Origin: Marsupella aquatica
Taxonomy: Eukaryota > Plantae > Marchantiophyta
Reading direction: 5' to 3'
Assembly: GCA_973895155.1 (NCBI GenBank)
Contig: OZ316892.1
Location: 9,528,283-9,592,282, forward strand
DNA: 64,000 nucleotides
Under the pieces are notes generated by a model. The model did not search any database. It worked only from the letters and a program-made list of their open reading frames with translations, and was not told the DNA's origin. How positions within the stretch are numbered: the stretch's first letter is position 1; each line of letters begins with the position of its first letter. Made by a program: the position numbers and the translations under genes. Below are positions 1 to 57,399 of the stretch, piece after piece.

Positions 1-1458
1 AGTATCCCACAACACACTTGATGCACATATAGGACGGCAAGACTCAAAATCTACCGATGCAAAATACTAGACAGACTAGCTAGTAGACAATCTAACTTGT
101 CTGAGAATCTGCATGGAGCCTTTCTATCATTTCAATGGCATCATAAGGCTTGTCAATCCTCAATAAATGGATATATAGAACAACCACCTACAAGCTTTTT
201 CTGCCTCTGGTTTATCCAGACGGTTGCGATCCAACTTGACTCCAACAAAGAAAAGCCCTTGATCTCCTTGTGCAAATCACTGACGCACCAAAGGCAAGAG
301 CAAGGGTGTCCTTTGTTTGCTTACAAAGAAACCCTCTCCTCCTCCTCTGTAGATGCCAAGCGCTCTTCCCTAGCTGATTCTTGGTCTACATCTCTCCTCT
401 TTGTTCAGCTCTTCTCCTCCGTGGCCTGGTCACCAGCAACCTCCAACAAACTCCTGCATCCCGTCCTGCATGCCTTCTTGCCTAAGGCAAATCATTCAAT
501 GAATCAATAAATCAAAGAATTTTTGAAAGGCCACATAATGTTTTTGAGCAATTCCTGTACTCTCTGAATAATGCAGTGGGATACTACTATGACAGATTGA
601 TAGTATTCTTCAACATGCACTTACAAGAACTTAAAGTTGGTAGTAGGGTTGTTGACACGATTGAGAAGCTGCACGCTATGGTATGATGTGGTATGCTACC
701 AGAGAATTTGTTGTTTTGTAGGGACCCTGTGTGCCACTAGAAAGACAATGTAGTCGCATATCACTAGCTGAACATCAAATTGTGTAATGATCGGCATAGA
801 TTGTAGACCCGATTCTATATGGGAAATCAATCTGCATGTAAATGCGTAAGAATGTGACAAAGAACTCAAAAACCACCTTGATCAGCTGGACCTTCAGATC
901 ACTCGATCTACAGCACCGTCTGTAGCACTCCCTTGATGCTAGATCCCACTACTGTAAAGTCCACCAACCTGTACAACACGACAATGTTTATTGGATGTGA
1001 GGAAAACAAACACCACCACTTAATGCAAGCGGGAATGCAAGCCTAAAAAGCTGGCAATAACATCCCACATTGGACGGATGGCACTAAAAGAATGCAAGCC
1101 TGAAAATATCACCTGGAATAGTCGCAACTCAAGAATCATCGCCTACTTAATTTGCCTATCCCTACTAATGCTATGGTTCACTCATCACGTGAAGACGTTT
1201 TAATAAGAATGCAACTATGTGACAAGGTGAGGCGGATCAGATAGAGGTACTTCACGCTAGAAGACAGGGCCAATGCAAATAGGGTGAGATGATTAAAGAG
1301 TCCACACGAAGAGAAATGTACCCGGAAATGTATCTACTCTAGACTGCTAAGACATGGGGCTCGGGGCCGAAGGTTTCTTAGCCGATTGTAGAGGTGAAAC
1401 CAGGGGCAAAACATTCTGAAGACTAGCCAGTACATGAAGTCATGACCAGGTCCAGTCA

Positions 1459-1554
1459 CATGCACCCGCTCTTAGTTGCAGACCAGCTCACTTTGGCTCC
1501 AATCGCATGCACCCGGCTCTTAGTTGCAGACCAGCTCACTTCCGCTCCAATCGC
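1459..1554. repeat. Tandem direct repeat, 2 x ~47 bp
   Basis: catgcacccg(g)ctcttagttgcagaccagctcactt..gctccaatcgc begins at 1459 and again at 1506. Confidence 0.85.
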
Positions 1555-2374
1555 CGCTCCAATCCAAGCCTTGATCCGGGTCGACTCCTATGCTTGAACA
1601 TTTGGGTCAAAGGTAGCTAGTAGCTCACATCTCTAGCTCACTAAAACTCAGCTTCAACCAGTTGGCCATGCTCGAACATTTGTCCATGCTCGAACATTTG
1701 TTGATCCACAAAACTTGGCACAATGTCTTCAGCCCTACACTGCGGAAGTTTTCCTGCAGCCCCGCCTACAGCTCACACCTTCAATGCACGTAGGTTGTAG
1801 GTCCAACTTCCAGGCTGCACCTTGCAGGATAGCAGGAACATTGTACAATCATAGATCGAACGTCCAGGTTGGCTTCTCCCACTTGAACATTTGAGTTTCA
1901 ACTAGGTTACACATCACCCCATGCATAAGCACAATTATAGCAAAATGTATGTGAACACTTTGGTGTCTGTCAGCCAAAGTGAATGTACTTGAGGTGAGGA
2001 CTGACAATAAGAGGGAGTATCCAAGGTCACATAATGAGATGAGAACTGACAATTAGAGGGAGTATCCAAGGTCCATAGTCCTAACTGGTACATGATTGGG
2101 CCGGTATGACCTTTTGACCCTTGAGCATTGTAGCTTAGTTCAATGAAAACAGCAAAAAAGAGTGCTAGGAACTCAAGGAGAAACTACAAAGTTATCATGC
2201 ACTAGTAAGAGGGCATCAAATTAAAGGGGTGCACAAGCCCTCCATGTCCCCAAGAGGTTTGACAAGAGTTTGAACGTACTCACCATCTGGCTCCACTCTC
2301 CCTCCCACTCTCCCTTGAAACTTAAAATAAAACAAGTTGTAACTATTTAATGGGGAATATGATAGACATGACAC

Positions 2375-2835
2375 AACTTAACCATAACTTGTTTGCCTAC
2401 AAGTTACTGCACTAAGCCATTCAAGCACAGGTTCAAGTTCCATTCATTTGTAATAAGAAAACTCAAGTTACCATATTGCGTTACAAACTGCAGTTCTTAA
2501 AAGATACTTGCCTTTGCTACGGTCAACAATAATCAAGTTTTTTCATAACAAAAAATTGCAACTTACCTGAGCTATTAAGACATGACACAACTTACCATAT
2601 AATTGCATTACAACTTGCAATTCTCTCAAGATACTTAACCATAACTTGTTTGCCAACAAGTTACTTCACTAAGCCATTCAAGCACAGGTTCAAGTTCCAT
2701 TCATTTGTAATAAGAAAACTCAAGTTACCATATTGCGTTACAAACTGCAGTTCTTAAAAGATACTTGCCTTTGCTACGGTCAACGATAATCAAGTTTTTT
2801 CATAACAAAAAATTGTAACTTAATTACCTGAGCTA
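2375..2835. repeat. Direct duplication, ~200 bp unit, ~258 bp period
   Basis: acttaaccataacttgtttgcc...aagttccattcatttgtaataagaaaactcaag...cctgagcta occurs from ~2375 and from ~2633 with few mismatches. Confidence 0.9.
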
Positions 2836-2904
2836 CCACTCTACAATGATTAATATAAAGCACAACAATGGATCACATCCAAAATGCAAGCTCAATCAAT
2901 TTGC

Positions 2905-4106
2905 TTAATCAATGTCCCAATCAATGTATTTGGGATGAGATTTGGAAGCCATCCCATTTGATAAAATTTTACATAATCCTTGACTTGAAAGTTTGGCTCT
3001 CTTAGCATGTGCAAATGCTCTTCCCAACTTTTGATTTAATGCCAAGGCAACCACATATACTGGATCTATTGTCAAGCTTCTTAATGAAGTCCCATGTCTA
3101 TCCCTTCCTCTAAAGAAAAATGCATCCCGTCAAGAAGTGGCATTTGAATACCATAGTCCATAATAGTGAAATATCCTCCTTTACAATTTCTTGTCAAATT
3201 AGAGACATATGCCATTGTCCAAATTGATGTATCAGCATCTTGGTGCACACTGTTACAACAATTTTTACTCAAAAACATAGGGTATCCTGGTACTCCTCTT
3301 TCGAAGGCTTTAGTGTTATTGAAACAAGCTCTAAATTTTTTCTCTAGTCTTAGAAAAGGTTCATTCAAAGAAATAAAATGATCCAAGATAGGAGAAAAAT
3401 GTCTTCCAAATAAAACAAGCAAAACTTCAAAAAGTAAACGATGAGAAGTTCTTTCATGCAATTCTTCTAAGCTAGATCTGCAAAATGGTGATCCATTTGA
3501 AAGTTTTTTCATATTTCTATAATAGGTTATATTCTCCACCTTGTTTTCTATACGATTGATTAATGGTCCCACTGCTCTCATATTTAGTTTTAAACTACTT
3601 CTTTTATCCATGCGAATAATAGGATTCTTAAAATTAAATTGATCTTCAATACAATCCCTTACAATTGGTCTTGCTTTGAGGTCTAATGCTCCCTTTACAC
3701 GTCCTCCAATATAAACCTTTTCTTGTTTTGTCACCCAAGGTTCTCTTTCAATCCACAACTCCATTTTTGTAGAATGATGCATAACATAAAAGTTCTCAGG
3801 AATAGGTGTCCATAATATAGATGGACATCTATTTTTAATTTTTCTCTTATTTTGTTGAAGTGGTTTTTTCAGGTCACTTGATATCAAATATGTCCCATCA
3901 TAGGACTTACAATTTTTTTCATTATGTCTCCCAAACATTTTAATACCTCCATCTTTTTGCAACCGTGGTATTAAGAAAGTATCAAAATGATGCTTTTGAG
4001 ATTCAAAAAAATTATGTTGATCTTTTCTTAATTTTGTAATACTTTCTTTCATTCCTCTAGGTAGCAAGTCCAATGCATATCGTGTTTCCAACATAGAGGA
4101 TAACAA
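2905..4106 (-). pseudogene. TET/JBP-like 2OG-Fe(II) dioxygenase domain protein, one frameshift
   Basis: ORF 3081..4106 contains SVHQDAD (HxD) then GGYFTIMDYGIQMPLLDG. Adding one base to the A5 run at 3116-3120 continues it as HFFFRGRDRHGTSLRSLTIDPVYVVALALNQK...WDID* (stop at 2905), restoring the distal His. This matches the TET/JBP HxD...GG...G...HGT pattern. AT-rich; ORF fragments at 4169-4944 may be its broken 5' part. Confidence 0.6.
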
Positions 4107-6489
4107 TGTCCATATCTCAGTATTATAGAGTATTTTCCATCTCTTAGCTTTAAATAGATATCTATATCCTAAAAAACATTATTTCGGCATATTGTTTCAC
4201 ATGTGTCATCATAAGTTTGCAAACCATAATTAAATAGAAACACTTCAGATACTACCCATTTAAGGAATATTTGTAGATTAAAGTAGTCAAATCCCACTAT
4301 TTTGATAACATCATAAAAATATAGTTCACAGTCTCTTAAGTTCAAGTTATTGGATTTGTTGAGTGTGGCCCGGAGTGTGGTTGGGAGTATGACATTCCCT
4401 GCAATCAATCATCGAGTCAATAACACTAACATACAATATTTGTTTTACATAAAATCAGGCATAAATCCTGCATGAAATATTTGCATAGAGGGAAATCCCC
4501 ATCCCAAACATGAAGTCCATATGTACATCCCAAATCATAATTTTCATACAAATTAATAATCTTTGTCACTGTTCTTGGTAAAGTTGTGCTACACATACCC
4601 TTGCTCCCATCTTTAGTCTTTGAAATCACTCCTCTATCCCCTGCTCTTGCTCTATTCTATTCCTTGTTTTTTTTCCTTGGTTGGAACGGTTTCTTGATGT
4701 CTTGCTCAAACTTTCGTTTTGAGTTTCTTGACAGAATTTGTTGAAGCTTGCCCTCTTGCTGACCATAAACCGGACCATCTTCATGCGAACGGTTAACCTT
4801 GGGATTAAACTGATCCATGAACTCATGCATGTGCAATTCTTTTTCTACTCTCCTTACCACAACACGTTCTTTTGGACCAAAAAAAGTACCAAAGGTGGAG
4901 TCATTTGGTAGATGCTTCATCTTCTGCTTCATCTTATTCTCCATCCTTACTACTTACAATTAGGTAACACTTTTTTGCAAAAAAAACAATACCCTCATTC
5001 TTAGATCCTACCCAACAAAACATCCCACAAAACATTTTAAACATATTTAAGGGCCAGGTCAGATCAAAGAGCACTGCCATGTTCATTGCCAGCAAATAAC
5101 AAGAACTAGAACAAAACAAATAGCGTTGGGGATGACACTATGCTAAACTCTAAAGTAAGTGGGAAACGGGGTGGGAAAGTAAGCAAGACCCACAAAAAAT
5201 TGTATTTGCAACCCAATTCAATCTTCAATGGCAATACTTATGGGCCCAACAAGCTAGATAATATCATAGAGGGAATTGATACTTTTTATCTAATAAATGA
5301 CGATATGACAAGGCCCCAATCAAGGCCCCAGTCAGGGCTGTGAATGTAAATTTCCTGCATCTGGAATTAATATGGAGAAGCAAGCTGGAGACGCCTTACT
5401 ATAAAAATAATGCAATTTTTTCATTTTACTATGAATAGGCTGTCATGCTGCAATATAGCATGGGAGAAGAGAGCGGGAACATGAGGAGTAATACACATCA
5501 TCAAAGCAGGCACAAGAGTGAAGAGTACCATCATAAAACCCAGGTTGCATCCAACCTGTGCGTACTCATCACATTGCTTTGCCGTGGAAAGCACTAACCG
5601 AGTTCACACATTCATGTGTTGTGCAGTTTCAAACTCCTGGCGTGTAGAGAGCCAGACTGAGCAAGCACCTGAGTACATCAACTAGTGGGGCGCGCATGCA
5701 ACAATTCAAACTACCGGACAGGATGCAGAGCCGCGCCAAGAGCAAGTAGGAACTTGACGCAATAGTTTGCACGCATAGAGTAAGGCCCTTGAGTAAGCAC
5801 CTTCAAGAACGCTTTGTCTCACTTCCCACATTAGCATCGCTGACAGGAAAATGGGAAGGTAGGAAATCTGCCTGAAGAAGCACTTGCTCACATCTCTTCC
5901 GCTACATCGCTGAAATGTATAGATTTGGGAGCCTTTATTGATTTTGCCTCTACCTACTTTGGCAATTTCCAGTCCAGCCTACTACATCAATCGTCACCAA
6001 CACCGGACCTGTACTGCCTACCGACATCAGACTTGTCCCTGCCACCAACATCAGACTTGGTGACCCATGGCTGTGGACCAACCCGGGGACCAATCCTGCA
6101 TCCCATTTTTGGACCTCCTCAGTCCTCACCAAACCTTCATGGCTGTTTTCACCGACTTGTAGACTTTTAGTTTGACAATTTCTTGACGGTTCTTCACCGA
6201 CTAGTGTGGGTGCTGGTTGTTGGCAACTACAAGTTACTACGCTCTCTGTCGTTTCCTCATCGTTCATCATGATGATCTTATTCCCAATCTATTATGTTGG
6301 CGGAGGAAATAGTCTTGCTCTCATTTACTCATAGTTTTTCACACTAGATCTTATTTTTGATCTTATGCAGCTGGCGGAGGGAATAGTCTTGGGGCCAGAT
6401 GTCTTTGATTAGAGGACAAAAGGATCGTCGTTGTTTTTTATTCTTTGCACCATTGGTGGTCTTTGCACAATTGGTTGTCAGCCGCCCGG

Positions 6490-6815
6490 TCAGCCGATCA
6501 ATAAGGAAGGCACACCAAATGGAAATGGACACATCTTGGCCAACGCTACATGGCAATTTGATGACTTCAATTTTGACAATGATGGGAATGCGTATCTGGT
6601 CAATGCTGCAAGTGGCAACTTGATACTGAGGGTCTCACCCGACGAAAGTCATCAGCAAATCATTGTCGGAGACATGAACTCAACCCTGATTGCACAGCCA
6701 ACTTCTGTCACATTTTGGAGGGGGCCATGTGACCAGAACACTCTGTACGTGACTTCTATAGGAGGGTTGCTTGCATCGATTAATGGATCCATCATCGTTG
6801 GCGGTCAGGTTATGG
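6490..6815 (+). pseudogene. C-terminal fragment of a fungal-type six-bladed beta-propeller (SMP-30/gluconolactonase-like)
   Basis: FDDFNFDNDGNAYLV...NLILRVSPD...IIVGDMNSTLIAQPTSVTF.RG..DQNTLYVTSIGG...GGQVMA resembles the last blades of fungal secreted propellers. No N-terminus is present. Confidence 0.6.
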
Positions 6816-7444
6816 CAATGAGAGAATGATGTCAGTCATGTTCCGCACCAGATCTGTGTTTTTGCTTTAGCTCTCGTAGTAGCGTCCCCAATGGGGATCT
6901 CGGCAGACCGCAACACAGGGGGTGAAGACGAAAGGAATGCCAATGGCCCGGACTTCTAGAGCCATTGCTCTGCCAATTCTCATCACCAGGTCCCAATCTC
7001 TCGTGGCTCCGAGTCCAATATTGTGAGGCCAATATTGTGAGGAAAGATTGTGGCCCCAACTACAACGTTATTACCGTGAACCGCATCTACTCTGTAGATC
7101 ATGGGAATTGCCAGCCAAGTAGACAATGCTTGCCTTTGGAACCTGTCGATCATTTCTTGCCACAAAATGGCATTGTTCAGAGTGGGCGTGCTTCCTCCCC
7201 CATTGAGCACACTACTGACCATGTATCGGTACACATTCGAATCTTTCATGACGATTGTTTGTTTGATCTGCATCATCTGCCCAATCTTTTCAGCCAACGT
7301 CATCCATTTCAAGAGATCCTGCACCCTCGCCTCCACGGGTTGGCTTCCATCCTTGTATAGATCGTAAGCCACCGTAGCATTGAGAATGTGAAAACATAGG
7401 AGTATAACACAAAGTGCTCGTCTTGCTGTTGTGGTCCCACCCAT
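6815..7444 (-). pseudogene. GH3 beta-glucosidase/exo-beta-glucanase N-terminal fragment
   Basis: Signal peptide, then [50 protein letters not shown] 14-bp duplication (7015-7042) shifts the frame; beyond it the sequence reads [41 protein letters not shown]. Truncated near 6815. Confidence 0.9.
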
Positions 7445-8499
7445 GGCGATTCAGTGGTCCCTGGCAGCTTCATGTTCTTTCTTTACTAGTTCTCTCGATT
7501 GTTTGCCTCACTTATCACACGGGAAGTACGAGAGGTTTCAACACCAAGGAGCACCGACATTGTACGATCTAGACAATCTAGGAGGTTGGTTTTCTCATTG
7601 AGTTCCTTCCTAAAGTTCCAACAGTCCGAAATAGTGTCAAATAGACGATCATTTATGAACAGTATTGATCGACCAAATCACACTCTATTAATTGAGGAGA
7701 CGCAAGAGATTAGAAGCATAGTTCTAGGTGTGGTTTTCCTTATCCGAGAAGTGGCTATCCAGCCATGTCTTTGCATTAGCTTAGCTTTTGTCTTTGTATG
7801 GATCGACGACATAGTATGGCTGCGACAAAGTCACCACTCTGAAATAATATCAATTGGATTGTGCTATCACTGATTGGCACAGTTAACGTTGGTCTATGCC
7901 AAATTTGTCTACCACACGCATAGACAACGTCAATTGCCGATGACCAAGGTAGGCTACCAAATTGGCACTCATGTCCATGCCATTTTTGTCACCTTGTAGA
8001 CCAGAAATCCCAGGCCAGAAAGAGACACACCGTCACGGTAGTGTAACAATTTCTCCCGGTACTTAAATTCAAATCTTGGGCAGATTGCACCGATTTGCAA
8101 TCTGTGAGTCATTTGCAATGAGAAAAAGAGGTACGTGGAAATAGTGACAACTTCTGGTCCGGATGTAATAGCCTCTGTGAATGATCTAGCTATCTATCTA
8201 TCCACTAGTATATAATTGCTTGAGCTGCAATAGTCTGGGGCTGTTGCCTCATTGATGGGTCACGATTTGCTTCTGACCTTTGTTTGTGTTTTTATTCTAA
8301 GTAGACACTACGTTTTTTTAACACACTATCCATTCCGGTTGTCAACTACTGCCGCCTCTTTATCGGTGAATCTGCTCCATGCATGTAAGTTACCGGTATT
8401 TTGTACACAAATTCAGAATGATATTGAGCTATTAGTGCTCATTGTAAATTTGACGTTAATGTGTATTCTTGTTGCTTATTTTGTATTCCTATTTGCCTG

Positions 8500-9181
8500 A
8501 ATGAAAACATGCACCAGATGGCTTGATCCTTGAATTGCTAGTCGTGTCTGAGTTGAGAGACCATCTTGGCATCTATCGGCAATTGGAGGATCCCTTTTTG
8601 TAAGGAAATCTTTGCATTTGGCACACAAAGCTGCTTGAATGCAAAGAAGTGTGAACAGCATAGCCTTCAAACTAAGCAATTTAATTCTAAGCCTTCGATG
8701 AATTTTCTTGAATTTCCCTCTACTTATCAATGAGGAGAACGTGTTGAAGGGATGTGTGTGTTTTTCAGAGAGGCAACCACCTCACTGCAGTCGGAGTGTT
8801 GGATTACATTGGCTACCTTGTGAAGGGACATGTTTGTCCACAAGTACGTACATCTATGCCCGATTTACATAGCATATAACTTGATGTTGATCCTGTTTCT
8901 GGAAGGTATTTTACGCCTTACATTACAAAGGCGCGACGATTGAGAGTTGCCTTGTTAGTGTTGTGTGTTAGTACACGGTAATGACACCGTCTCTTCCGTT
9001 TCACATTTAAATTGATAAAGACTTGTTAGAGTGCAGCATATACCAGAGTTATTGAGGATTGATTACAGTGGGACAGATTGACTTGACAAAAGGGGGCCCT
9101 GGAACCTACCGCCTGCATCTCAATGGATCAGAGGTTGAAGCCAAACTTCAGAGTCTTCGTGATGGTGGACTCCTTGTGTAG
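8500..9181 (+). pseudogene. ACC1: Internal fragment of homomeric acetyl-CoA carboxylase, degenerate, introns retained
   Basis: Successive exon remnants read WLDP*IASRV*VERPSWHLSAIGGSLF|gt (~8518-8599), LDYIGYLVKGHVCPQ|gt (~8770-8843) and IDLTKGGPGTYRLHLNGSEVEAKLQSLRDGGLLV*|gt (9077-9181). These match consecutive ACC motifs (WLDSRIA..RAERPPWYLSVVGG; DYVGYLEKGQIPPK; GGxGTYRL..N.SE.....LRDGGLL). Confidence 0.8.
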
Positions 9182-11989
9182 GTATATTGTTTTATCCACT
9201 CCTTGTGTAAGCATTGGACTACCATACTACGTCAGAGCTTCCAACTTAGTGTCGTGCTAGCTTTACTAGCATAATTAGTTCTGGAATTTGGGCCTACTAC
9301 TGTAAAATTTCAGAGTCTAACAAGTGCTGCACTTCATTATATTGCAGCTGGATGAGAATAATTTTGGTCCTTAAGAGACCTCGTGCAGAGAGTTTCTCCT
9401 GAGACGGATGACAAAGGGTGATCGAAATCAAGGATATACATTCCTCTATGGATAAGTATATCTTTAGCCCATATTCCCTACTTTGTAAGCTAGTACATAT
9501 CTTCACTTACGTCTTCCTATTTTAGGCTACAATATTCCTGTTATTTCCTCTCAGTCTACCATGCTCAGACGTCACTTGATGAGTGCAGTATAGCAGTCCT
9601 GATAGCAGTACACAATTCTAGATCATAAGGGATTTGTGGCCGTTCTTGAAAACAGAATGGAAAAGGGCACATTAGTAAGGCATTGCTTGTTTGTTAAATT
9701 GCATAAGCACAAATCCGGTTGTCCAATTTCTGATTGATACTTTGGACAATATGCAATTTGACGACAAGGATCTAGAATGATTAAAATAGTGATTGATGTG
9801 ACAACGATCTAGAATGATTGAAATAGCAACTGATGTGGCAGCTATGCCGGTAGAAAGAAATTTAGCAGGTGCTAAGGATTTTGTTCTGGTATGGCTTGTG
9901 CGCAGGTGCCCGCCAGGTGGATTTTGTGTGAGCTCACTATTCGGCTTTCAGGTCCTTGTGGGATGAATTACTTCAAGTTTAAAAGGTCAGATAAATAAGA
10001 CAAGCTCATCGCTGGACAGCGTCGAAGTAGATGAAAAGCATGTCTATCATGTTCAAATGTAGTTGGAGTTGGACTCACATTCTTGGATCAGGACTGTTGC
10101 TGACTTTTTCAGTTTGTTGTTTTATGGTAGGGCTCATGACTTACCTCAGTGTTGCAACCGGACCTACAAGACACTTGCTAGTGAGGAAAAATTTCACACA
10201 AGAATCAAGGTCTAATAGCGATTCAAATATGTTAGGTTGTATTTCCTAATTGTTTAATTCAAAGATGCCCTAGCTACAGGTGTCCAGGCTAGGCTCTGAC
10301 ATTGACTAGTATCTCTTAGACTGGCACTTTTTGGTTTATTATGATTGTCAAGATTGGCCCTCTTTTCACTGTATTCATTCACATCATTCATACGGGCACT
10401 TTCTATTTGTTCATTGTGCTCTTTTCACTGTACTCACAATGATGCTGCTTTTTTGACAGATTTACTTGTCATTTTCTATATTCCAATAGGGACTGGAGCA
10501 CTGTTTATGTTGTCCATATATGGGTCACATTCAAGTCCTCAGAGTGACCTATGGTACCAGCAGTAAATAGACCTAAAAGTTAACATTTTAAGAGTCTGGA
10601 TGTTTACATCGCGGTGCTCTCTCGTTCTCGCTCTTGTTGGACCATTAATGTTGCTTGCAAGTTTCCATGTAAGCTTGAGATCCAAATCTTCTTGATCTCC
10701 ATGCAAACTACTATTCACCTGGTTGATATTGTTGGACTACCAGGTATTTCTGCTTTCCACATTTGACAGCGTGGGCCAAGGGTGGTGTAAAAGGCAGTTG
10801 GTGTAGTTTAGCTACTTTGCAATCTTAGCCGAGATCTTAGCATCTTTGTCAAATTCTCATAGGCTAAATTTAGGTTTTAGCTAAGTTCTAGTGCAATTTT
10901 GGGGAAGTCGAGGGTCAGTACAAGGTTAAATTAAAAAGGTGGAGTATGTTTAAGAGGCAAAGCCATGGACAAAGGACACTATAATTTCTATATAATATAT
11001 ACAACATTATCAAAAACATTTTAAAATCTTAAGAAAAATCCCCCAAAGCTGGTTAGTTTGGCGGTACACCTATAATAAAAAAAAGCAGTGGGGGGCAAAC
11101 ATACAAAGCAAGACTTTCTATTAGTGTATCCATTCCTTCACTTAGTTATTGATTCCTCTGAGTTTGATCAGTTCAGCTGAGTGGCATACTTCATCGATCT
11201 TGTAGTCACTACTACACCACAGCCCGCATCAAAGTTTGAGTGCAAAAAGGAATGCACAGTGATGAGAAATGACAGTTATGGTGGCTCTGAAATCAACACG
11301 GTCAACACTGCAATGGGCACCGCAAGCGGGACAGTGTAACTAGCATGACCAAGGTGAGGAAGCGCAAGGGTGATCCAATGAATGAGCCCTAGCAAGACCA
11401 ACCTGCTTACTACGCACACCTGCCTGATTTGAGAGAGAAAAAGTCTTGACCTTCTAAATGGGATCAATCCGGGGTTCACACCTTGGCCGACCCTAAATCC
11501 TGAACCTCAACCAGGGCCTTAACCAAGCCGGGAACCAAACTCTCCCTAGAGGTCCCTGGTCCAGCATGTGGATGACTTTTAATTGCCCTCCCCCTGCCCC
11601 TAGCCTTCCCCCAAATCCATTCAAAACATGTTATGGGTGTGTTATGGAACTAGAACTCCCTTCAAATTAAATTTTAATCAAGGATATCTGGGATAGTGAA
11701 TAACATTGAATTTATTAACCATTTTACTATTTGTACTTGTGTACCAATGAGGTGTTGACACGTGGACCAACCATATAGTGACACTTGTCATTCCAATTTT
11801 GAGTACCCTTGCATAACAAAATGTGGCATATGTTTAATAAAAGGCTTATTTCTTAAAATGTGCAACACATATATATTGGGACCTTGACTACTTCAAAAAA
11901 TATTATAAAAATTACTTTCCATTCAATTAAAAATACCCTTGCGACGTTCGCACATACTCCCTGTATTACTAATACTGAGGGCCCAGGGG

Positions 11990-13926
11990 AATTCAGTAAT
12001 GTGAAGATTCCACCAGTCAATCAATTTAGTGCGTGCACCGATTGTGAAGAGTTCAAGTCAATTCGAGACAAAGCTGTTTCCGACAATGAAAAAAGTAAGT
12101 TAGTATTTGAAATTCAACCATTTACAGAAAGTGTTGAAGTCTTTTTAGTGGTTTAGAGTGACTAACTTTGTTTATTTGTAGGGCGAGGAGAATTGATGTT
12201 ACAAAAACACCGGGACCAACAATCAAAGGAACACGAGAAACTTGCCAAGCACCGAAAAATATGTTTTTAAAATCCTGAAAAATATTTGGGAGTTGTTATT
12301 GATGGGATGGATCAAAAGAAGACAAGGTTGCCTCATTGGCCATGCCCTCCAAAATCTGTGGATGAAACCTGTTTAATTCAAATGCATGTTGTAGGTTGTT
12401 TGGTTTTCAGTGGGGTACTCTTTTCAAGAGTGTTCCTGAATTATCCTGTTTTACATAATGATGGAAACTTAATAGTTACAATTCTACAAAGGATATTTCA
12501 TGAATGGGAACAAAAACCCAATGGCCTACCACCTATTTTGTATCTTCAACTTGATAATACTAGCAGAGAAAACAAAAATAATCTGCTTTTTGCATATCTT
12601 CACATGTTGATCCAAAAGAAAATATTTCGGAAAATTAAACTAGGATTTTTACTTGTTGGACACACTCACGACCAAATAGATCAAATGTTTAGCCGTTTTT
12701 CTAAACGGCTAGCAAGGTTTAAAGCTTTTACATATGAAAGCTTGTGTGACATCATTCGTGAGTCTTATCAACCCCAACCAGACATCACCCTCTTAAAGGA
12801 AACATACGATTTCCGTCAATTTGCATTCTCAGATCCTGATTTAGTCATTGAGAGGATACGGAATGTCACCTTTCATCATCAATACAAATTTTCATTTGAC
12901 AACTTACCAGATCATGTTCCAACACAATGGGGGAAAAAATTCTCCACAGATTCTACCTGGAGACCAGACGGAGGGGTGAAGTTCTTGAGGGAAGAGGAGC
13001 CACAAAAGATAATGGGATGTGCTCCCGGAATCCCCCTTTTCAAGAAGGGGGAGAAGAAACGCGATGACAACGGCACAAGGACTCAACCAAATTTGTCAGG
13101 GTCTTCAAATATGACTTCTACTGAGATGGATGATTGCTTGAACGACATTCAAAAGGGTATATTTGCAGTTCAAACATTATTTTCCGAAGAGGAAGTCAAT
13201 TGGTGGACAAGGTTTTTTGAGGAACAACGAGAATTCAATAAAGCTTTGCTCAACAATCAAAGGCAACTCGAATTTCCTTTTCGGTGGCCTAAAGCTCAAG
13301 GGGAGACCATTGCTGATGTTGAAGTTCCAGGTGTTCTCTTGAATGAAGAAGAAATGGAAGAGAGAGTTTATGGCCCTACTCAAGATATATATGTTGGTCC
13401 TTATCGGAACCAGGAAAAAATTGATGCAGAGAAGGAGAACATGGAAGGAGATTTTTCAGATCTTGAAGTCAACACTTTCATTTCTGTAGCTGGAGAAGAG
13501 TCGCAAACATTCTGGGTGGCCAAGGTGAAAAGAATTGTTCTTCGTGACGAGTTGAATATTCCAAAAATTATCTATGTTCTTTGGCATGCTGCAAAGACAG
13601 GATCAGATCCGTGGAAAGCAAAGTACTTACCGGAAGTCTTGAATTACGAGAAGAAAAAAAGTGGACGGGGTAAAGGTACTCTGAAACCTATATGGTTTCA
13701 CCAGGAACTTGATTTATCATCCACGACTGTCTTCGCCTATAATTTCATGTTGACAAAGTCAGATACCTTGTACAAGAAAACCGTAAATAGAATCAAAATT
13801 CGGTTGGCCGAATTCCTAGCGGAAGAGAAAGACCAAGTACAAGAGGCTAGGTCAGTTAGAACATCAGAAGTAAGTCATTCTAGAGATATTTTGGCTGAAG
13901 ACTCGATAAGTTCTGATTCAGAGTAA
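11990..13926 (+). mobile_element. Sola-like DDD DNA transposase (DUF7869-type), 5'-truncated, with one premature stop
   Basis: CxxC (FSACTDCEEFK), GT-AG intron 12095-12181, in-frame TAA at 12268-12270, then IDGMDQKK, YLQLDNTSRENKN and LLVGHTHDQIDQMFS catalytic motifs in the 546-aa ORF. No TIRs identified. Confidence 0.7.
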
Positions 13927-20293: not shown

Positions 20294-22210
20294 ATGAATA
20301 AGGTGAATAAGGTGGTGTGCCCAGAATGTCACAGAGCAACAGAGGTAGTGGTCGATCATGCGGCAGGGGACATGGTGTGCTCGGAGTGTGGACTGGTCCT
20401 GGAGGCCCATTCGATAGACGAGACCTCAGAATGGCGAACGTTCTCCAACGAGTCATCGTCTAACGACCCCGTCCGTGTTGGAGGGCCCTCCAATCCTCTC
20501 CTCACAGGCGGCGGAATGTCCACAATCATCACTAAACCAAATGGGGCTCAGGGAGATATCATGTCGTCGCTGGGCCGTTGGCAGGACCGGGGCTCCAATC
20601 CCGATCGGTCTCTCAGCATCGCGTTCCGCACAATTGCCACTATGGCTGATCGGTGAGTTTGTTGCGCTTTAATCTACTCCGAAAGCACAATTTCCTCCAA
20701 TATCGTCCGGTAGACTTCGGGACTGTTTTGTCATCTAATGTACCTCCAGCTACTTTAGTTGGCTTTGGTAGTATGTGAGGCCCTTAACACCACAATCTGC
20801 CGTCTACCAGGGGTCCACTTTACTTCTGCAATCCCTAGAATATTGGTCAAGTTGGCATATCTCTATTTGCAAGACGTCCTGTGGTTAAGGGGTTGCAAGA
20901 GCGCGTGATGTTCTGTGTGTCCCTTGTCCTGATGTATTGTAACGCAATTGTCCTCTCCAGGATGTAAAGATTCTTCTGTTGTCTAATCTGTGTAGGCATT
21001 GCTGTTGTCATCAAAGAACAGATGTGCCCACCTTGTCCTCCTCCTAGCTATAAATGGAAATGCGGATTTCTGATGTTGTTCTTCGCGTTTATGTATTATG
21101 TTGATGTTGGCAGGTTGGGGCTCGTCTCCACCATCAAGGTGTGTATCAGTCTCTAATCAGTGCTATCTAGGACGTCCAAGTTTAGTTTCTCAACTTTGAT
21201 GTGTCGAGTCGAATTTGTCAGAAAGAAAAACTGTGGTGTGTTTCAAATTATAAATCGGAATTCTAGAGGGACACATGAGACTGACAGTAGTATTTTGCAT
21301 AAACTGGAGACCTGTTTAATAATGTTGTATGAATGCATTATTAGAGTCGTTGTCAGATGGTTCAATAGTAATACTGAATGTTTTGGTACAGTTTTTTCCG
21401 GACACAAACCTGGTCTCTACTTGTCTGTTTGTTATGTTGCATGTAATATTGTGAGTCATTGAAAACAGTATGATATTAGGCCTACTGTCAACCTAGAATT
21501 TGCCATGTGCTCTTCGACTCCTGATTTACCCCAACGTGTGGGAAGGAAACAATGAGTCATAATGTATGCCTAAGTTTGTTTCTATGGTGCTCCTGCCGAA
21601 ACTGCAGCTAAATTATGTCTTGTTGTTAATTCTGTGCAACGCACGTCTTGACCAGGTGAGGTGTTAACCCTTTGCAACAGAGATGTGCTAAATGCACTCC
21701 CGCCTCTTCGTTGTGAATGATCGGGCCAATGAGATCTACAAGAAGGTGGAGGATTTGAAGTCCATCAGAGGCAGGAGCCAAGATGCCATTCTGGCTGCTT
21801 GTCTCTACATTGCTTCCAGGCAGGAGGACAAACCGCGTACTTTTAAAGGTATTGTGGGAACCAACTTCTTTGCAACGAATTCTAAGTAGCATGAAGATGT
21901 AAGACCGATCGGGATGCGGAAGGCATTGGTCATATAATTTTGGCGCTGAGAAGGAAAACATAACTGGGACGATGCTAATAGAGATATTCCGTCTCCTCCT
22001 GAGAACATCAAGTCTCAGTAGCTTTGCCTCTCTCGAGCTAAATACTACTTGGCGTGGCGGTTCCTTTGTCATAGTCCGGCGCAAAGTAAGACTGCAGAAA
22101 TATGCTCCGTAGCAAATGGCGCTTCTAAAAAAGAGATTGATCGTGCCACAAAGTTCATTGTCAAGCAATTGGAAGAGGAAATGGGAATGTCCATGGAGAT
22201 GGGCACAATC
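20294..22210 (+). pseudogene. TFIIB: Transcription initiation factor IIB, 3'-truncated copy
   Basis: Exon 1 (20294-20652) has the Zn ribbon CPEC...[16 protein letters not shown] and DPVRVG. Exon 2 (~21115-21138) LGLVSTIK; exon 3 (~21719-21848) DRANEIYKK...[10 protein letters not shown], with no clean AG acceptor; exon 4 (22098-22210) EICSVANGA...MEMGTI. Homology stops before HAGDF; the second cyclin repeat is absent. Confidence 0.88.
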
Positions 22211-30402: not shown

Positions 30403-31807
30403 CTATTGCTGTCGTTTGGCCAGCAGCGCTACACTCACTTGCTTGAGGCCCTCCCCAATGTTGTTCAAGGCCTTAACATACCCATTACCCAGCTCCATGG
30501 TGCCCCTAAACCGTTCCTTCACGAATTTCAGCTTGATCGTTTCCATTGCCATGTCCTCCTTGTGCCTTTTATCTTTCCTCTCTTCTGACTTTATCATAGC
30601 ATCAACAATCTTCTTATTGTTCCTCTCTAGGACCGGGGCCATTTGGTCAACTAACATTGGCGAACACTTGCGTTTTCTTAAGGCGATCGGTCCATTCATA
30701 TTATCGGCATCATCACCGTCGGAATCTGAAAATGTCTTGTTGCTCCCAGCTGTGTTATCTGGACTTCCTCCTGCTCCTGTATCACATCCGTAGGAACATG
30801 CTACCAAAAACATTCAGTTTATTTCCACCCTTCCTCGGGGGAAACAGTGGTCTATTAAAAACATTGACGAATAAAATGCAGTCCGGAGGGCAAAAAAGGT
30901 TAATCAGAAAATATGGAGAGTGGGAAGGAAGACAAAATCAAAGGAACCCAACAAACAATCCGGAAGATACAGTGGACTCATTGGTGTACAGAAGGCCCAA
31001 TAAATGTCAAAAAGTGTCACAACACTGCGGGAAGAGGGGATTGAAGCTGTGTGTGTGCACTGAAAATCTCTCCAACACAGATACTCGAAAGAACATGCGA
31101 GGAAAAGGATATAGACTATTCCTTGATCAAGTGTTGTGCCCAAAGTACCATATGGGCAGTCCAGAGCTTACTATTGAGGAAAAATAATTCAAGACGGAGT
31201 ATGAAGCCATTTACTTTAGGAGATATTGAAAATGATTTCCACATGAGCATGGCATCCAAAGCTTACCGATTCGCAGAACTGGGACTGGAGTGGAAGTATC
31301 AACGGCCAGCTCCCCAGGGTCCGTTGCTTTGCTTTTGCCGTACCATTCAGTGAGGGATTGGAAAACCTCCTTGTAGAAGTTCCGGGGAAGACGGTGCTTC
31401 GTCCTCTCGTCCCCAAGCATCTCCCAGTAGGACCTCCGTCCACCCGGGATATTCTTCTCATAATCATTCACCTTTTTGAACTCGGAGGCTAGAAGCTCCC
31501 ACTTATCCTGGCATTGCTGCGCGCTCTTCTGTACACCTTGAGCCCAGCAATAATCCTCGATCCACTGCCATCTCTCTACTGCTGTCTTCTTCTTCTCCTT
31601 CGACCCACCCTTGTTCGGCCTGTTAAAATCTTCCCGTCTGGCAGCCTGGAGGATAACCATCTCTTCTGGAGTCCAGTTGCTCTTCTTGTATGCCCGACCC
31701 TTCCTTGAACCCTCCGGATCCCCAAACAGCACATCATCGTCTGTGTCCTTGCTCTGATCATCACCCACTTTGCGAGGGTCACCCATCCCGACCTCTTCGC
31801 TCGTCAT
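30403..31807 (-). CDS. Trihelix Myb/SANT-like DNA-binding protein (ASR3/SH4-like, possibly Harbinger-derived), exons 31807-31267 and 30800-30403
   Basis: NWTPEEMVIL...RWQWIEDYCW..GVQKSAQQCQDKWE.L..EFKKV.DYE...SYWEM...R....LP. In-phase gtaagc...ggtag intron and a C-terminal coiled coil. Confidence 0.8.
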
Positions 31808-34151
31808 GCCAACCGGGAATACACAGAGAAAATGCCAATCTGCCAGATCGAAGAATTTTTTGAGGGAATTGCGTTCAACCTTGGAATTCCAGAACACTCT
31901 TTCAAGGAAAATATATTTTCCTCGTCACACGAACCCTAACCTTTCTGCATACCTCTGCTTATCACTCGATCCAAAATGATCTAGTGATCGAGACAAAGTC
32001 GGTGCTCCCTCTCTCTTCTTGTTCTCCCTCCTGTTTCGGTCTGCCTCTTGCGCGCCTTCGCACCTTCCCCAGCTCCTCGTCAGCCATCTTTGGGGCCAGA
32101 ATTGCACGAAAAACCTCCACATAGCCGCTTCAAACCCTCTAATACTGACAGTGCCTCATACCAACGGCAACCCTTCAGCCTTCCGAGGTTCACGAGGGAA
32201 ATGCTCCTCGTTTTTTAAGCTTAGACAGTAAAATGGCATCAAGTTACCCGCGACAACCTTTTCCACCTCACATTCGCTCTACTTTCTTTGCCATGACCCT
32301 CCCAAAAGTCCTACAACCATTAATTGCTAGGTACTTCTAAAATCCACGGCTCATTTCCCGGCCTCGTCAGGCAACACAAATTGGACATCAAAGTCCTCCT
32401 CTGACTAACTAAACCACCTCGCCTCGGTTCCCTCAAATCCGTCTTGGTACAAAAGTCGGGGCTTCCTTAGCTTGCTCTCTTCTGTTGTCCAACCCAAGCT
32501 ACCTCATCTCCGTGTTTGCAATGAGAACCATTAACACCATCAAAACCCTGGCAGCCACTTCTCTTCGTCTACTACCTCTCTACTCGTAGCATGGGGAAAT
32601 CGCTGCTGCTCAATTCTCCTTCCTCACGTGACCCGTTGCCACCGTCGGAAGTCCTTTTCGCCAACCAAAAATTTGCAGAACAAAAGTTTCCAATCTGCAG
32701 AATGCCCCACTTGACAGTTTGTTGGTCAGACGGGGATGGGCTCCCTGCTGCGCCGCTTTGCTGCTGACGCTCCTGCAAATTGATACCGGATTTCATTGTC
32801 AGTGCACCAACGAATTAACAATCAATTAAGGTACGACCAACCTGGCCTGACATGGAATATAGAGTAGAAAGAAGTAAATAATCCCACCCTTTTCCTCTTC
32901 AAGGCTTAACCCCAACACGCTCTCTAGTTTACCACTGTAGTTTCGAGATTCACATCCGCTCCCTCCCCTGATTGATGGTCCCTCCACCTTTTCGTCCCCA
33001 ATGCACACTTCCCCTTGATGGTCCCTCCACCCTTTCGTCACCAATTCACACTCCCTGACTCCCCACCTCGAAGTACTGTACAACATAAACATTGTCAGAC
33101 ACCAAATTGAGAGACAAACAGGACACTGCTCTATCCTCCGTCCCCCTGAGTACGTCCTATGCAAAGAAATGAAGGAAGTTGGGTAGAGACGGAACTGAAC
33201 AGAAAGTAAAACACAATCAACTGACAAAAACAGGAAAGCGCCAACTACATCAAATTACAATCAGAATTGATGAGGAAAACACAGTCAACTGACAAAGAAA
33301 GGAAAGACCCAACTACATCAAATTACACTCATCACGAGAACAAAGAATTGAGGAGAAAAGCATCAAAGGGGATTATCGTACTGCGGTAAGTTTGTCTCTC
33401 TTACAAGCGCCCCACACCACTGCAATGCAGAATCAAAACTCTCTGGACCTCCGACGTACACAAACCCACACAGGGAGTCAACAAAATCCACGGCTAACCC
33501 AAATCTCCATACTCAATCCTCGGGATTACTCCTCCTGGGGATTGACTCTCGAGAGGGGATTGCCTGAGAGTAATGGGAAGAGAAACCGGAAAAAGGGGTG
33601 ACAGATATATATATCACAGTGCCCAAGGGCCCAAAGGGGTGACAGAGGGAAGAAAGGCGGCGATCGGTGAGAAACGAGCCCTGCAGCTGGGTGTGTGGCG
33701 GGCGGCGCGGGTTCTGCCCCACCATGAGGCACGGGGGAACTTCCTCTCTCTGGTGCCCACGGCGCTTTTGCAACTTTTGCACCAGCATGATTGCTCTTCT
33801 ATAAAATAGTGATGTTGTGAGCAAGTTAATCAAGCTCCGGTTAATGCTACGGTAGGATGAGATCTGGACCTCAAATTTCTGTTTTAAAGTTCGATGAGAT
33901 CTATGCTTTAGAAGTTTATATTTACTAAATCACCATTGGCATTTTATAAAGAGAAAATGGATAAAAAAATTCCCTGATTTCTAATCATTGTTCGCCTCTG
34001 CTATGTCATCCTCTTCCCCCATTTCATATCAAATTCCCCTCTTACATGTAGTGTTAGCTGGTGGATCCAGTGGAGGTCTACTGGCCATCTGTAAGGAAAG
34101 TGTTGAAGAATTCCCCCTTTTTTCCATATTCCACTCACTCCTTTCCTCTAC

Positions 34152-54890: not shown

Positions 54891-57399
54891 CTAAAAAGGT
54901 GTGTTGCGTCCCTTCTTCTTCTTTGGGCGAGAGCATGGGCGGGGTACAGGTTTGGGAGCGCGAGACCCCTCATGTTGGTGGCTGCCCACAACCGTGGTAG
55001 CCACCTGCTCAGCGGATGGCGTGGGTTGGCCTGATGCAGGTCTAGACCCTGAACCACTAGATGCACCACTACGGTGCTTAGGCAAGACAGATGTCCCACC
55101 ACCCCCCGACACAGCAGAGTGGAAGGAGCCCTCTCCGGTAGACCTACGCGAGTGATGGGATGCTCCACCTGCATGTGTTGTCTCTGGCCCGTGCCGTGCT
55201 GTACTCCCACCAGACTCACGAGATGGCGCTCGCCCCCTAGAACCACCATCCTGTATGTCACTAGTCCCTCGTCGTGGAGGGTCAGCTGGTGCACTATGTA
55301 CCCCGGACCGATGGCCTGGTCCCACACGACCTCTACTACCCCCTGACGGCCCGGGCCTACCACCCCGTGATGGTGCTAAATGATGGGAGCCCACACCATC
55401 AGCATCATGTGAACCAGCACCCTCTGCTGATGTGGGGGCAACATGAGGGATAGGGGTAATCGTGGCCACTCTCGCCGACCCTGCCGCATCCTCTGCATCC
55501 TCATCACCTGCATTCTCATCACCAGCATCCTCATCGCCAGCATCCTCATCACCACCGTCCTCATCACCTGCATCCTCATCACCTGCCCCACCTGACTCCT
55601 CATCCGATCCTGACTCCTCCTCCTACGCAATACATAGCTAGGATTAAATTGTTGTTAAATTAGTTTATATAGGGCCTCCAAAACTCTAACAAATTCACCA
55701 TAACCAAAAACATTTTCATAACCTAGGGGGAACACAAACCTCTCCCAACTCATCCTCAAGGTGGCGCTTAAGAGCGCGGGGTCCATTCCTCTTTGCCAAA
55801 TCCCTCTCGGATGGCCCAATAGGTCTACCCCACTCCCTTTCTTGGCAGTTCACAGTCCCAAACAAAATATCCCATTAGCATGAAACCAAGCAATCTTGGA
55901 CCCCATAATGCACACCCTACATACCCCTCATTAAAACTGTTATCATAGTAAACCCTAATTTAAAATAGGACCCCTGCCACATACCCATACATATCCTATA
56001 CCCTATATATAAACCCCTAATCAAACTAGTTCTCAAATTTAACCCTAATTTAAAAAACTCCACAAAGTGCTACTCAATCATGAAACCCCTAAAACCTAAT
56101 ACCAAAGTTAAACAGTTATTGCTATAAGCCCCCTAAAAATGCCACAAAACCTGATAATTAAGCTTTCCACGAGGGGTCCGATTCTCCATCGGATTGTCTT
56201 AGCATCGGAACTGCCTCGGAACATTAGTGCCAAAAAATGAATAACAAGAGGTCCGATGCCGGGTCCGATGCAGAAGAATCGGACACCTATCGGAAAGCAC
56301 AGGGCCGAGAGCAAATTACACCATCGGGCCGCAAAGGGTTTAAAGCATTTGGAGGCTAAAAAATGGTCACTCTTCACAACAGAAGGTCAGGTGGTCGGGG
56401 GGAGGAGCTAGGGAGGAGGGAGAGGGGACTTACAAATTCGGCCTTTAGTCGATTGGAGCCGCCTTGCCCCATCCGGTGAGTGACCACAGGTCGACCTTGC
56501 ACTCGCTGCAAAGCTGCTATGATGTCCTTTGGTGGCTTGGGGAGTCTTACCTCTTGTGCATGCCACTGTCGTAGCATCTGTTGGAGGGGGAGGATGTCAA
56601 TTTCCTCTCCAGCTTTCCTCTTCTCCTCTGCCAGGCTGATTTTGAGATTGTAGTGACGTTTTTGCAGCCAGGCTCGGACTGCTAGTTCCTCCTCAAGCCA
56701 AGCTGCCCACTCATCTGAGGAAAGCGCATCTGGACAGCCCTGCTCCCTGACCACCTCTGCATCCATCGGCATCTCAGCAAGGTAGTTCCTGAATTTCTCT
56801 CTTTGATGGTTTCGCATGTCTGAGAGTGAGGCGGATATCCTCTTGTTCAAGAACCTATCATCAATGTGTGCCCCGTTCTTGAATCGTTCTTTCACTTGCT
56901 CTCGAATTCTGGATTTCTCTTCCTCCTTCTTCTTGCCCCAGTAATCTAATGGCCCCAAATTGGCCCGCACCACTTGTTTGAATTGGCTGCGAAAGAGATT
57001 GTAGCCCCTGGGTAATGGAGAGCCACCTGAGTTTAGGGGTAGCTCAGGCCTCAAAGCTCTCTCTGCTTCCTTTCGCTTGAGCTCCTCTACTCGCCCCTTC
57101 TCAGCTTCCCTAGCCTCCCTCCGAAGCTTCTTCTCTCGTTTTCGAGGAGAGAGAGACTCCTCTGCATCTGCCCTGCTTCTCTTTGCCTCCTTCTTCTTCT
57201 TTGCAGCTGCAATGGCTGCTACAGCAGCTTTCTCAGCCTCAATCTTTGAGGCATCAAACAAGGTCTGCAAAAGCGGGACTACTCTAGCTGCATCCTCCAC
57301 ACTCAACCCGGCCCTAGCAACAAAAATCTCCTTCATCACCTCATCGTATGCCCGAGAAGGTCCAGCCCCATCCCCACCACCAGATTTGCCTCCCACCAT
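54891..57399 (-). CDS. TnpA-like CACTA protein (Ptta/En/Spm-type), about 3 exons (57399-56434, ~55840-55740, ~55623-54891)
   Basis: CPDALSSDEWAAW...VTHRMGQGG resembles TnpA-family motifs; gtaagt donor at 56433. Middle exon EWGRPIGPSERDLAKRNGP has an unclear acceptor. The last exon has acidic GDEDA repeats and a basic PKKKKGR tail. Confidence 0.6.
55490..55620 (-). repeat. 15-bp coding tandem repeat (GDEDA)n
   Basis: catcctcatcacc(t/a)g units repeated about six times on the + strand. Confidence 0.85.

What the first reader, a model, noticed from the sequence alone, without database searches (positions are those of the whole stretch)
2905..4944. Hidden TET/JBP-like DNA dioxygenase with a repairable frameshift and no obvious 2OG-binding arginine
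Seen: HQD (His codon at 3243-3245), GGYFTIMDYGI and, after a one-base correction in an A5 run, RHGTS (His codon at 3094-3096). The following strand reads DPVYVVALAL, where TET/JBP enzymes normally have the 2OG-binding Arg. The gene sits in an AT-rich, intronless island. Known: TET/JBP enzymes oxidise 5mC or thymine, are absent from angiosperms and are often transposon-linked in fungi and algae. Chlamydomonas CMD1 keeps the iron ligands but uses ascorbate rather than 2OG. Inference: a TE-borne DNA-modifying enzyme family, possibly with atypical chemistry.
Basis: partly seen in the sequence, partly recalled or inferred. Interest (0 to 1): 0.75.

Follow-up and report, generated by a model that had tools for sequence, protein, structure and literature searches.

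The report
Liverwort TET-like enzyme lacking cofactor arginine
A liverwort carries a gene of the TET/JBP type, an enzyme class said to be absent from land plants; it is broken in this copy but reads as intact in other samples, and its whole small family lacks the usual co-substrate arginine, so it likely modifies methylated DNA by non-standard chemistry.

Summary
The motifs are real and the gene is TET/JBP-like. A predicted model of an intact relative matches NgTET1, CMD1 and TET2 best (Z 13.3, 12.4, 12.2). The host is a liverwort. Contigs of 4 of 4 other runs carry both bases and 3 of 4 lack the stop; run X3 tiles an open 613-codon frame. Among 11 database relatives, HxD is kept in 8 of 8 and the distal His in 6 of 6 that cover them. 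The 2-oxoglutarate Arg column holds Val/Met in 7 of 7 family sequences, against Arg in 10 of 10 phage TET/JBP proteins. The base-stacking aromatic is Asn in 6 of 7. Action on 5mC, the co-substrate, expression and transposon carriage are all untested; no transposase lies within 7 kb. Verdict: new variant of a known kind.

The parts
4599..4944 (-). Predicted exon 1 (ATG at 4944; 115 codons, basic, no family match)
   Evidence: Open frame apart from the stop at 4659; needed to supply a start, because homology to P0009 begins in exon 2 where no Met lies upstream. No homologue covers it; predicted only.
4657..4659 (-). Premature stop in this copy; Glu codon in runs X2, X3, X4; stop shared by the X1 contig
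4399..4598 (-). Predicted 200-nt GT-AG intron (AGG|GTATGT ... TTGCAG|GG), phase-compatible
   Evidence: no RNA evidence; other phase-compatible donors exist (e.g. 4448, 4526, 4592)
2905..4398 (-). Exon 2: N-terminal helical region and TET/JBP-like double-stranded beta-helix domain, stop at 2905-2907
   Evidence: Homology to P0009, P0004, P0003, P0008 and others over residues 141-592 of the X-read-through; fold of relative P0008
4170..4178 (-). Frame break 1: one base fewer than in contigs of 4 of 4 other runs
   Evidence: table 4; upstream frame matches P0009 (E 3e-4)
3612..3614 (-). Conserved Arg 123 residues before the first His; likely equivalent of TET2 Arg1261 / CMD1 Arg244
   Evidence: Arg in 7 of 7 family sequences that cover it; equivalence inferred from spacing only
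3231..3245 (-). HQDxD: first two predicted iron ligands plus the Asp that would read cytosine N4
   Evidence: HxD and the further Asp in 9 of 9 covering sequences; Asp aligns to the Asn of ParB-linked phage enzymes
3207..3209 (-). Tyr at the offset of CMD1 Trp358 (predicted pocket filler)
   Evidence: Aromatic in 6 of 9; offset-based, register
3126..3128 (-). Frame break 2: homopolymer run one base shorter than in contigs of 4 of 4 other runs
   Evidence: P0003 spans it in frame
3079..3096 (-). Distal His (3094-3096), Thr at +2, and a family-conserved Arg at +5 (3079-3081) that could stand in for the missing Arg
   Evidence: His 7 of 7, Thr 7 of 7, Arg 6 of 7
3034..3057 (-). Last core strand: Val (3052-3054) in the column of the 2OG-binding Arg; Asn (3034-3036) in the column of the base-stacking Tyr/Phe
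   Evidence: Profile alignment to 10 phage TET/JBP proteins; Val/Met 7 of 7, Asn 6 of 7
2376..2835 (.). Two 203-nt direct repeats (96% identical) 70 nt past the stop codon; role unknown

Best explanation
This is a disabled copy of a liverwort nuclear gene whose open alleles would encode a roughly 613-residue protein with a predicted TET/JBP-type iron dioxygenase domain that likely modifies 5-methylcytosine in DNA and likely binds a co-substrate other than 2-oxoglutarate in a rebuilt pocket, much as algal CMD1 does. Shown: the motifs, the three breaks, open alleles in other runs, the family-wide residue pattern. Inferred, with my odds: TET/JBP-type fold and iron binding 0.9; methylcytosine in DNA as substrate 0.65 (Asp after HxD, first Arg kept); non-2OG co-substrate such as ascorbate 0.45 (no Arg in the C5-carboxylate column, bulky aromatic at the CMD1 Trp358 offset); origin as cargo of a mobile element that counters host CG/CHG silencing 0.45.
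For: Fold: model of relative P0008 (mean pLDDT 51.6; ten-residue blocks 65-85 around the catalytic strands) gives NgTET1 Z 13.3/rmsd 3.6/202 aligned, CMD1 12.4/4.7/241, TET2 12.2/4.6/232, then AlkB 11.0 among 48,161 chains; Foldseek ranks NgTET1 and CcTET first. P0008 matches the window protein at E 1e-9. ESM Atlas: top three clusters for the window protein carry Tet_JBP at 0.97, 0.96, 0.95. Profile-profile match to 10 phage TET/JBP proteins: probability 68, E 4.7e-5, score 40.8; 15 column shuffles scored at most 28.0. Triad kept in 7 of 7 sequences covering all three sites. Arg column: Val/Met 7 of 7 versus Arg 10 of 10. CMD1 ascorbate-contact offsets: Ser/Thr at His-8 in 8 of 9, Thr at His2+2 in 7 of 7, aromatic at the Trp358 offset in 6 of 9 (CMD1 numbering from PMC7854593 passages). 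Open frame under the intron model in X3, whose five main contigs cover the gene with all listed differences accounted for, and in X2 and X4 as far as listed. Listed main-contig differences are 11 non-synonymous to 8 synonymous (pN/pS 0.37, p 0.03), a decayed copy 7 to 1. CG o/e 0.30 and CHG o/e 0.49 are the lowest of 10 reading-frame sets tested.
Against: No Pfam family reaches its cut-off: best is PF20515 at E 0.0014 for P0003 and PF12851 at E 0.13 for P0012; the window pieces hit neither. The window protein folded alone gave no usable model (pLDDT 39.6), so the fold rests on a 25%-identical relative. The stacking aromatic (NgTET1 Phe295, CMD1 Phe416) is Asn, and CMD1 Ser335 is Phe/Tyr, so base binding differs from both TET and CMD1. 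The Thr at His2+2 also occurs in canonical phage enzymes (10 of 10), so it does not discriminate. A conserved Arg at His2+5 could still bind 2OG. Residue equivalences come from sequence offsets and a moderate profile alignment, not from superposed coordinates. One second copy has His to Gln in the HQD motif. The SNP test is small, 15 rows were not shown, and main versus decayed copy do not differ significantly (Fisher p 0.20). No transposase within 7 kb and no terminal repeats found.
Confidence: 0.45

Rival explanations
1. An ordinary 2-oxoglutarate-dependent 5mC oxidase (5hmC/5fC/5caC) in which the C5-carboxylate is held by a relocated residue, the Arg five residues after the distal His or a Tyr hydroxyl.
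For: Arg at His2+5 in 6 of 7; first Arg in 7 of 7; Tyr at His1-5 and His1+12 in most members. NgTET1 and CcTET rank above CMD1 in Foldseek (ranks 1-13 versus 25). 2OG-binding residues are subfamily-specific in this superfamily (PMC7854593, passages).
Against: The closest relative P0003 has Cys, not Arg, at His2+5. In the model that residue lies just past the strand end; its direction could not be inspected.
Confidence: 0.3
2. A TET-fold protein that acts on something else (thymine, RNA, 6mA/4mC, a small molecule) or binds methylated DNA without catalysis.
For: Both the 2OG Arg and the stacking aromatic columns are changed. AlkB is only 1-2 Z units behind the TET hits.
Against: Iron triad kept at about 25% identity, which argues for catalysis. 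Asp rather than Asn after HxD favours cytosine over thymine (PMC4678852, passages).
Confidence: 0.15
3. The whole family in this liverwort is decaying relic DNA with no present function; open frames in other samples are only young.
For: Three breaks in this copy; the stop is shared with run X1; a His-to-Gln copy and a copy with a one-base deletion at 4005 exist. Strong CG/CHG depletion implies long silencing.
Against: An open 613-codon frame in X3 and synonymous excess among alleles from two studies (6 to 6, p 0.025).
Confidence: 0.08
4. Contaminant or endogenous viral DNA rather than a liverwort gene.
For: AT-rich island; ESM neighbours include viral and fungal clusters, which the tool says are no sign of transfer.
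Against: No relative confirmed in viral contigs, metagenome contigs (75, 77) or prokaryote genomes (79). Predicted spliceosomal intron, plant-type CHG depletion, plant gene fragments beside it, and run contigs that cross from gene to flank at like depth.
Confidence: 0.02

Closest known systems
NgTET1 of Naegleria gruberi (PDB 4LT5, 5CG8) and human TET2 catalytic domain
   Same: Top fold match (Z 13.3; TET2 12.2); HxD...H with 50 residues between the His; GDxxFF[RK]G before the distal His; Asp after HxD like Asp234.
   Different: No Arg at the Arg289/Arg1896 column; Asn at the Phe295/Tyr1902 column; HxDxD rather than HxDxxD; about 350 extra N-terminal residues of unknown fold; 10-13% structural identity for the relative modelled.
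CMD1 of Chlamydomonas reinhardtii (PDB 7CY4-7CY8), ascorbate-using 5mC glyceryl-transferring TET homologue
   Same: Tied by fold (Z 12.4, 241 aligned); no functional C5-carboxylate Arg; by offset, Ser/Thr at Thr337, Thr at Thr399, aromatic at Trp358, and an upstream Arg like Arg244.
   Different: No sequence-level match to CMD1 at E up to 10.
Transposon-borne fungal TET/JBP dioxygenases (PU, AG, PE types; Kojima 2025, PMC12730594; Pfam PF20515)
   Same: Weak PF20515 matches in 4 of 11 relatives (E 0.0014-0.049, below cut-off); multi-copy, partly decayed family; CcTET is a high Foldseek hit.
   Different: Host is a liverwort; no transposase or termini found beside this copy; Arg column lost. 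The paper's alignment figure could not be seen.
Phage TET/JBP (PF12851) such as Cooper gp2 and P12024L gp26
   Same: Profile match over 168 columns (probability 68).
   Different: All 10 keep R-x-S-x-x-x-Y/W on the last strand; no ParB, glycosyltransferase or methyltransferase partner here.

Membership tests
TET/JBP superfamily | Double-stranded beta-helix fold closest to TET/JBP structures | tested here: met
   Model of relative P0008: top three of 48,161 chains are NgTET1, CMD1, TET2; not modelled for the window protein itself (one search failed)
TET/JBP superfamily | HxD...H iron triad | tested here: met
   7 of 7 sequences covering all sites; one partial second copy has His to Gln
TET/JBP superfamily | Pfam PF12851 or PF20515 over the curated cut-off | tested here: not met
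   Best 19.1 bits of 27 (PF20515) and 11.9 of 34.9 (PF12851); bona fide phage members also fell under the PF12851 cut-off (28 bits)
Canonical 2OG-dependent TET/JBP | Arg on the last strand binding the 2OG C5 carboxylate | tested here: not met
   Val/Met in 7 of 7 versus Arg in 10 of 10 phage proteins
Canonical 2OG-dependent TET/JBP | First Arg (TET2 Arg1261 / NgTET1 Arg224) | tested here: inconclusive
   Conserved Arg at His1-123 in 7 of 7; equivalence by spacing only
Canonical 2OG-dependent TET/JBP | Aromatic residue stacking the flipped base | tested here: not met
   Asn in 6 of 7, Gly in 1
CMD1-like enzymes | Ascorbate-binding residues (Arg244, His249, Ser335, Thr337, Trp358, Thr399, Ser414) | tested here: inconclusive
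   By offset, Arg, Thr, aromatic and Thr are matched; Ser335 is not; His249 and Ser414 not placed
CMD1-like enzymes | Forms 5gmC with ascorbate | not testable with these tools
   Needs enzyme assay
TET-bearing DNA transposons | Transposase or Helitron gene and termini enclosing the TET gene | tested here: inconclusive
   None within 1-11800 of the window; only 2.9 kb of the downstream flank is in the window; no whole genome held
Land-plant nuclear gene | Host genes of a land plant on the same contig | tested here: met
   TFIIB exon at 20294-20653 is 94-96% identical to Marchantia, Calypogeia and Riccia proteins and 81% to the moss Ceratodon

The most novel reading that the evidence does not exclude
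Liverworts carry a working, mobile-element-type family of TET-fold enzymes that writes an undescribed modification on 5-methylcytosine with a co-substrate other than 2-oxoglutarate: an enzymatic 5mC-modifying activity in a land plant, and a chemistry apart from both TET and CMD1.
Probability: 0.2. Interest if true: 0.9.

Novelty: new variant of a known kind. Interest (0 to 1): 0.62.

Why it matters
[quoted passage not shown] A liverwort family with open alleles makes that directly testable. A 2024 review leaves open whether further TET/JBP types with other cofactors exist (PMC11065753, passages); a family that keeps the iron triad but has lost the 2OG Arg and the stacking aromatic is a concrete candidate. 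It would also add to the laterally gained 4mC methyltransferases of Marchantia (cited in PMC12344493, passages) as a second unusual DNA-modifying system in liverworts.

Tried and rejected
Word-index protein search with the main ORF found none of 940 candidates; with alignment A1 only 3 proteins already in hand. Pfam and PHROGs gave nothing for the window pieces. PDB sequence searches with the ORF, A1, P0012 and A4 gave only chance hits. Phage tblastn gave chance hits or none. Locus searches confirmed no relative in viral, metagenome or prokaryote collections, so no genomic context or taxon is known for any of the 11 relatives; none carries an informative name. Single-sequence folding of the window fragment failed. 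No RNA holder was listed; this says nothing on expression. Reading Tyr (3055-3057) as the Arg column was rejected: the profile alignment puts the next residue there. A long inverted repeat 5081-5107/18896-18922 (27 nt, 81%) was not supported as a terminus. Literature: ten searches found no paper on TET/JBP genes in liverworts or mosses; searches are weak because the phrase may not match the slash spelling, and subscription papers, including the Iyer/Aravind surveys (recalled), are not in the library.

Full report
Observation. On the minus strand an open frame 4178-3081 (365 aa) holds HQD (His codon 3243-3245) and GGYFTIMDYGI; a second frame 3117-2905 (70 aa) holds RHGTS and DPVYVVALAL. The gene region has GC 0.339, with 2 of 124 windows lower. 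The three-frame translation shows further disruption upstream.

Host. The TFIIB exon at 20294-20653 is 96, 95, 95 and 94% identical to proteins of Marchantia paleacea, M. polymorpha, Calypogeia fissa and Riccia fluitans, and 81% to the moss Ceratodon: a liverwort. No whole genome is held.

State of the gene in other samples. Five runs hold part of the stretch, four of them two thirds or more of its words, from two studies. Their contigs all show one more base in the run at 3126-3128 and one more near 4170-4178 (4 of 4 runs each). The stop at 4657-4659 reads Glu in X2, X3 and X4, while the X1 contig matches the window, so at least the stop is a real allele. Whether the two missing bases are mutations or assembly errors cannot be told. 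A GT-AG intron at 4399-4598 is phase-compatible. With it, the listed differences give 613 codons and only the terminal stop for X2, X3 and X4, one internal stop for X1, and 30 stops for the window. X3 is the full test: its main contigs overlap across the gene and their counts of differences match the rows shown. X2 has gaps, and 15 rows were not displayed. The contigs are not phased. Listed main-contig differences are 11 non-synonymous to 8 synonymous on 1358 and 364 sites (pN/pS 0.37, p 0.03; the three-base change at 4152-4154 and the stop site were left out); a diverged copy with a deletion at 4005 gives 7 to 1; the contrast is not significant (p 0.20).

Other copies. A 1930-nt contig in X1 and X3 (and a like contig in X4) matches only 3182-3310 and has His to Gln in HQD. 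Contigs about 82-86% identical match 3214-3462, 3559-3729 and 3718-3957. So this is a small family with decayed members. CG (o/e 0.30) and CHG (0.49) are more depleted than in any of nine other reading-frame sets in the window, including CACTA (0.47, 0.66) and two host exons (0.65, 1.09), the footprint expected of long CG/CHG methylation. No transposase lies in 1-11800; neighbours are a GH3 fragment and a weak SGL-like fragment. A DUF7869 frame starts 7 kb upstream on the other strand, with no link shown.

Family. phmmer over 1.84 billion representatives gave 11 relatives, E 8e-41 to 1e-4, all unnamed; the ten looked up lie on contigs of 0.7-4 kb. P0003 is 69% identical over 163 residues and spans break 2 in frame. 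No relative was confirmed in viral, metagenome or prokaryote contig scans, so taxa and contexts are unknown.

Fold. The window fragment alone did not fold. P0008 with a 16-row alignment gave mean pLDDT 51.6, low over residues 1-167 and several loops. Foldseek ranks NgTET1 and CcTET first, CMD1 at 25, TET2 at 29; in BFVD the best named hit is a JBP1/TET domain protein. VIA-align gives NgTET1 13.3, CMD1 12.4, TET2 12.2 (tied within about 1), then AlkB 11.0. ESM Atlas puts the window protein beside Tet_JBP clusters (0.97, 0.96, 0.95; family share 41, 97, 51%) and P0008 beside unnamed Mucoromycota and Basidiomycota clusters and a PF20515 cluster, with a low recognition value. No Pfam cut-off is reached.

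Active site. In the family alignment (window plus 11 relatives, counts over those covering each site): HxD 9 of 9, Asp two residues later 9 of 9, distal His 7 of 7, Thr at +2 7 of 7, an Arg 123 residues before the first His 7 of 7, an Arg at distal His +5 6 of 7. To fix the register I gathered 10 phage TET/JBP proteins (six of the 18 IMG/VR loci were not needed beyond the five diverse ones used, 13 near-duplicates left out) and aligned profiles: probability 68, E 4.7e-5, score 40.8, against at most 28.0 in 15 shuffles. The 2OG Arg, present in 10 of 10 phage proteins, faces Val/Met in 7 of 7 family members; the stacking Tyr faces Asn in 6 of 7. The NgTET1 stretch printed agrees. The literature calls both Arg residues strictly conserved for 2OG binding (PMC7854593, PMC8256090, passages). 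CMD1 keeps Arg410 but turns it away and fills the site with Trp358 (PMC7854593, passages); this family has an aromatic at that offset in 6 of 9. An Asp after HxD sets cytosine preference in NgTET1 (PMC4678852, passages).

Mechanism. Most likely an Fe(II) enzyme that flips and modifies 5mC in DNA, with a rebuilt co-substrate pocket. I put non-2OG chemistry slightly ahead of 2OG held by a relocated Arg or Tyr; neither is shown. By analogy with fungal TET-bearing transposons, for which anti-silencing is proposed but untested (PMC12730594, passages and parts 3-4 of 7; its supplement was searched for three terms without hits and its alignment figure is not visible), the gene may be mobile cargo that counters host methylation. 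The carrier was not found.

Novelty. Ten searches found no paper on bryophyte TET/JBP genes (limits under Tried and rejected). [quoted passage not shown] Two earlier, unchecked notes of this scan report dead CMD1-like copies in Sphagnum; the sequence look-up found no look-alike of this protein, so their relation to this family is open. Other papers seen as passages only: PMC11065753, PMC12344493, PMC13229309. Verdict: a new variant of the TET/JBP kind in a land plant, with open alleles and an altered pocket; function untested. Interest 0.62.

Noticed in passing
window 11857-13926 (+): DUF7869 frame (E 7e-51), 551 aa open after one stop near 12268, with an upstream Cys-rich exon; looks like a recently broken DDE-type transposase (the family label as transposase is recalled, not from a call).
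   Followed up: partly
window 54891-63213: CACTA Tnp2 transposase frames (59987-63213) preceded on the same strand by a SET-domain-like frame (58958-59866, E 3e-5) and other unassigned frames: a possible chromatin-enzyme cargo of a CACTA element.
   Followed up: no
window 30403-31924 (-): Myb/SANT-like frame (E 3e-12) with a second exon, of the kind paired with Harbinger transposases (recalled).
   Followed up: no
window 6400-7730: SGL-like and GH3 gene fragments matched by up to 15 contigs per run with loose ends: captured, multi-copy host-gene fragments next to the TET-like gene, possibly cargo of one large element.
   Followed up: partly
window 464-1236: Run contigs join 504 to 1206 and show loose ends at 464 and 1236 in X1 and X4: a repeated or polymorphic insert of about 700 nt.
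   Followed up: no
window 2850-5050: Main contigs have about 2-2.7 times the depth of the diverged-copy contigs in all four runs; may mean several near-identical copies, but the tool warns depth is no copy number.
   Followed up: no
window 20294-22210 (+): Liverwort TFIIB gene whose later exons appear interrupted near 22210 by unrelated sequence.
   Followed up: no
L001:785-1753, L002:776-1744, L024:223-1008: Phage TET/JBP genes are labelled 'queuine tRNA-ribosyltransferase' in RefSeq although they match PF12851.
   Followed up: partly
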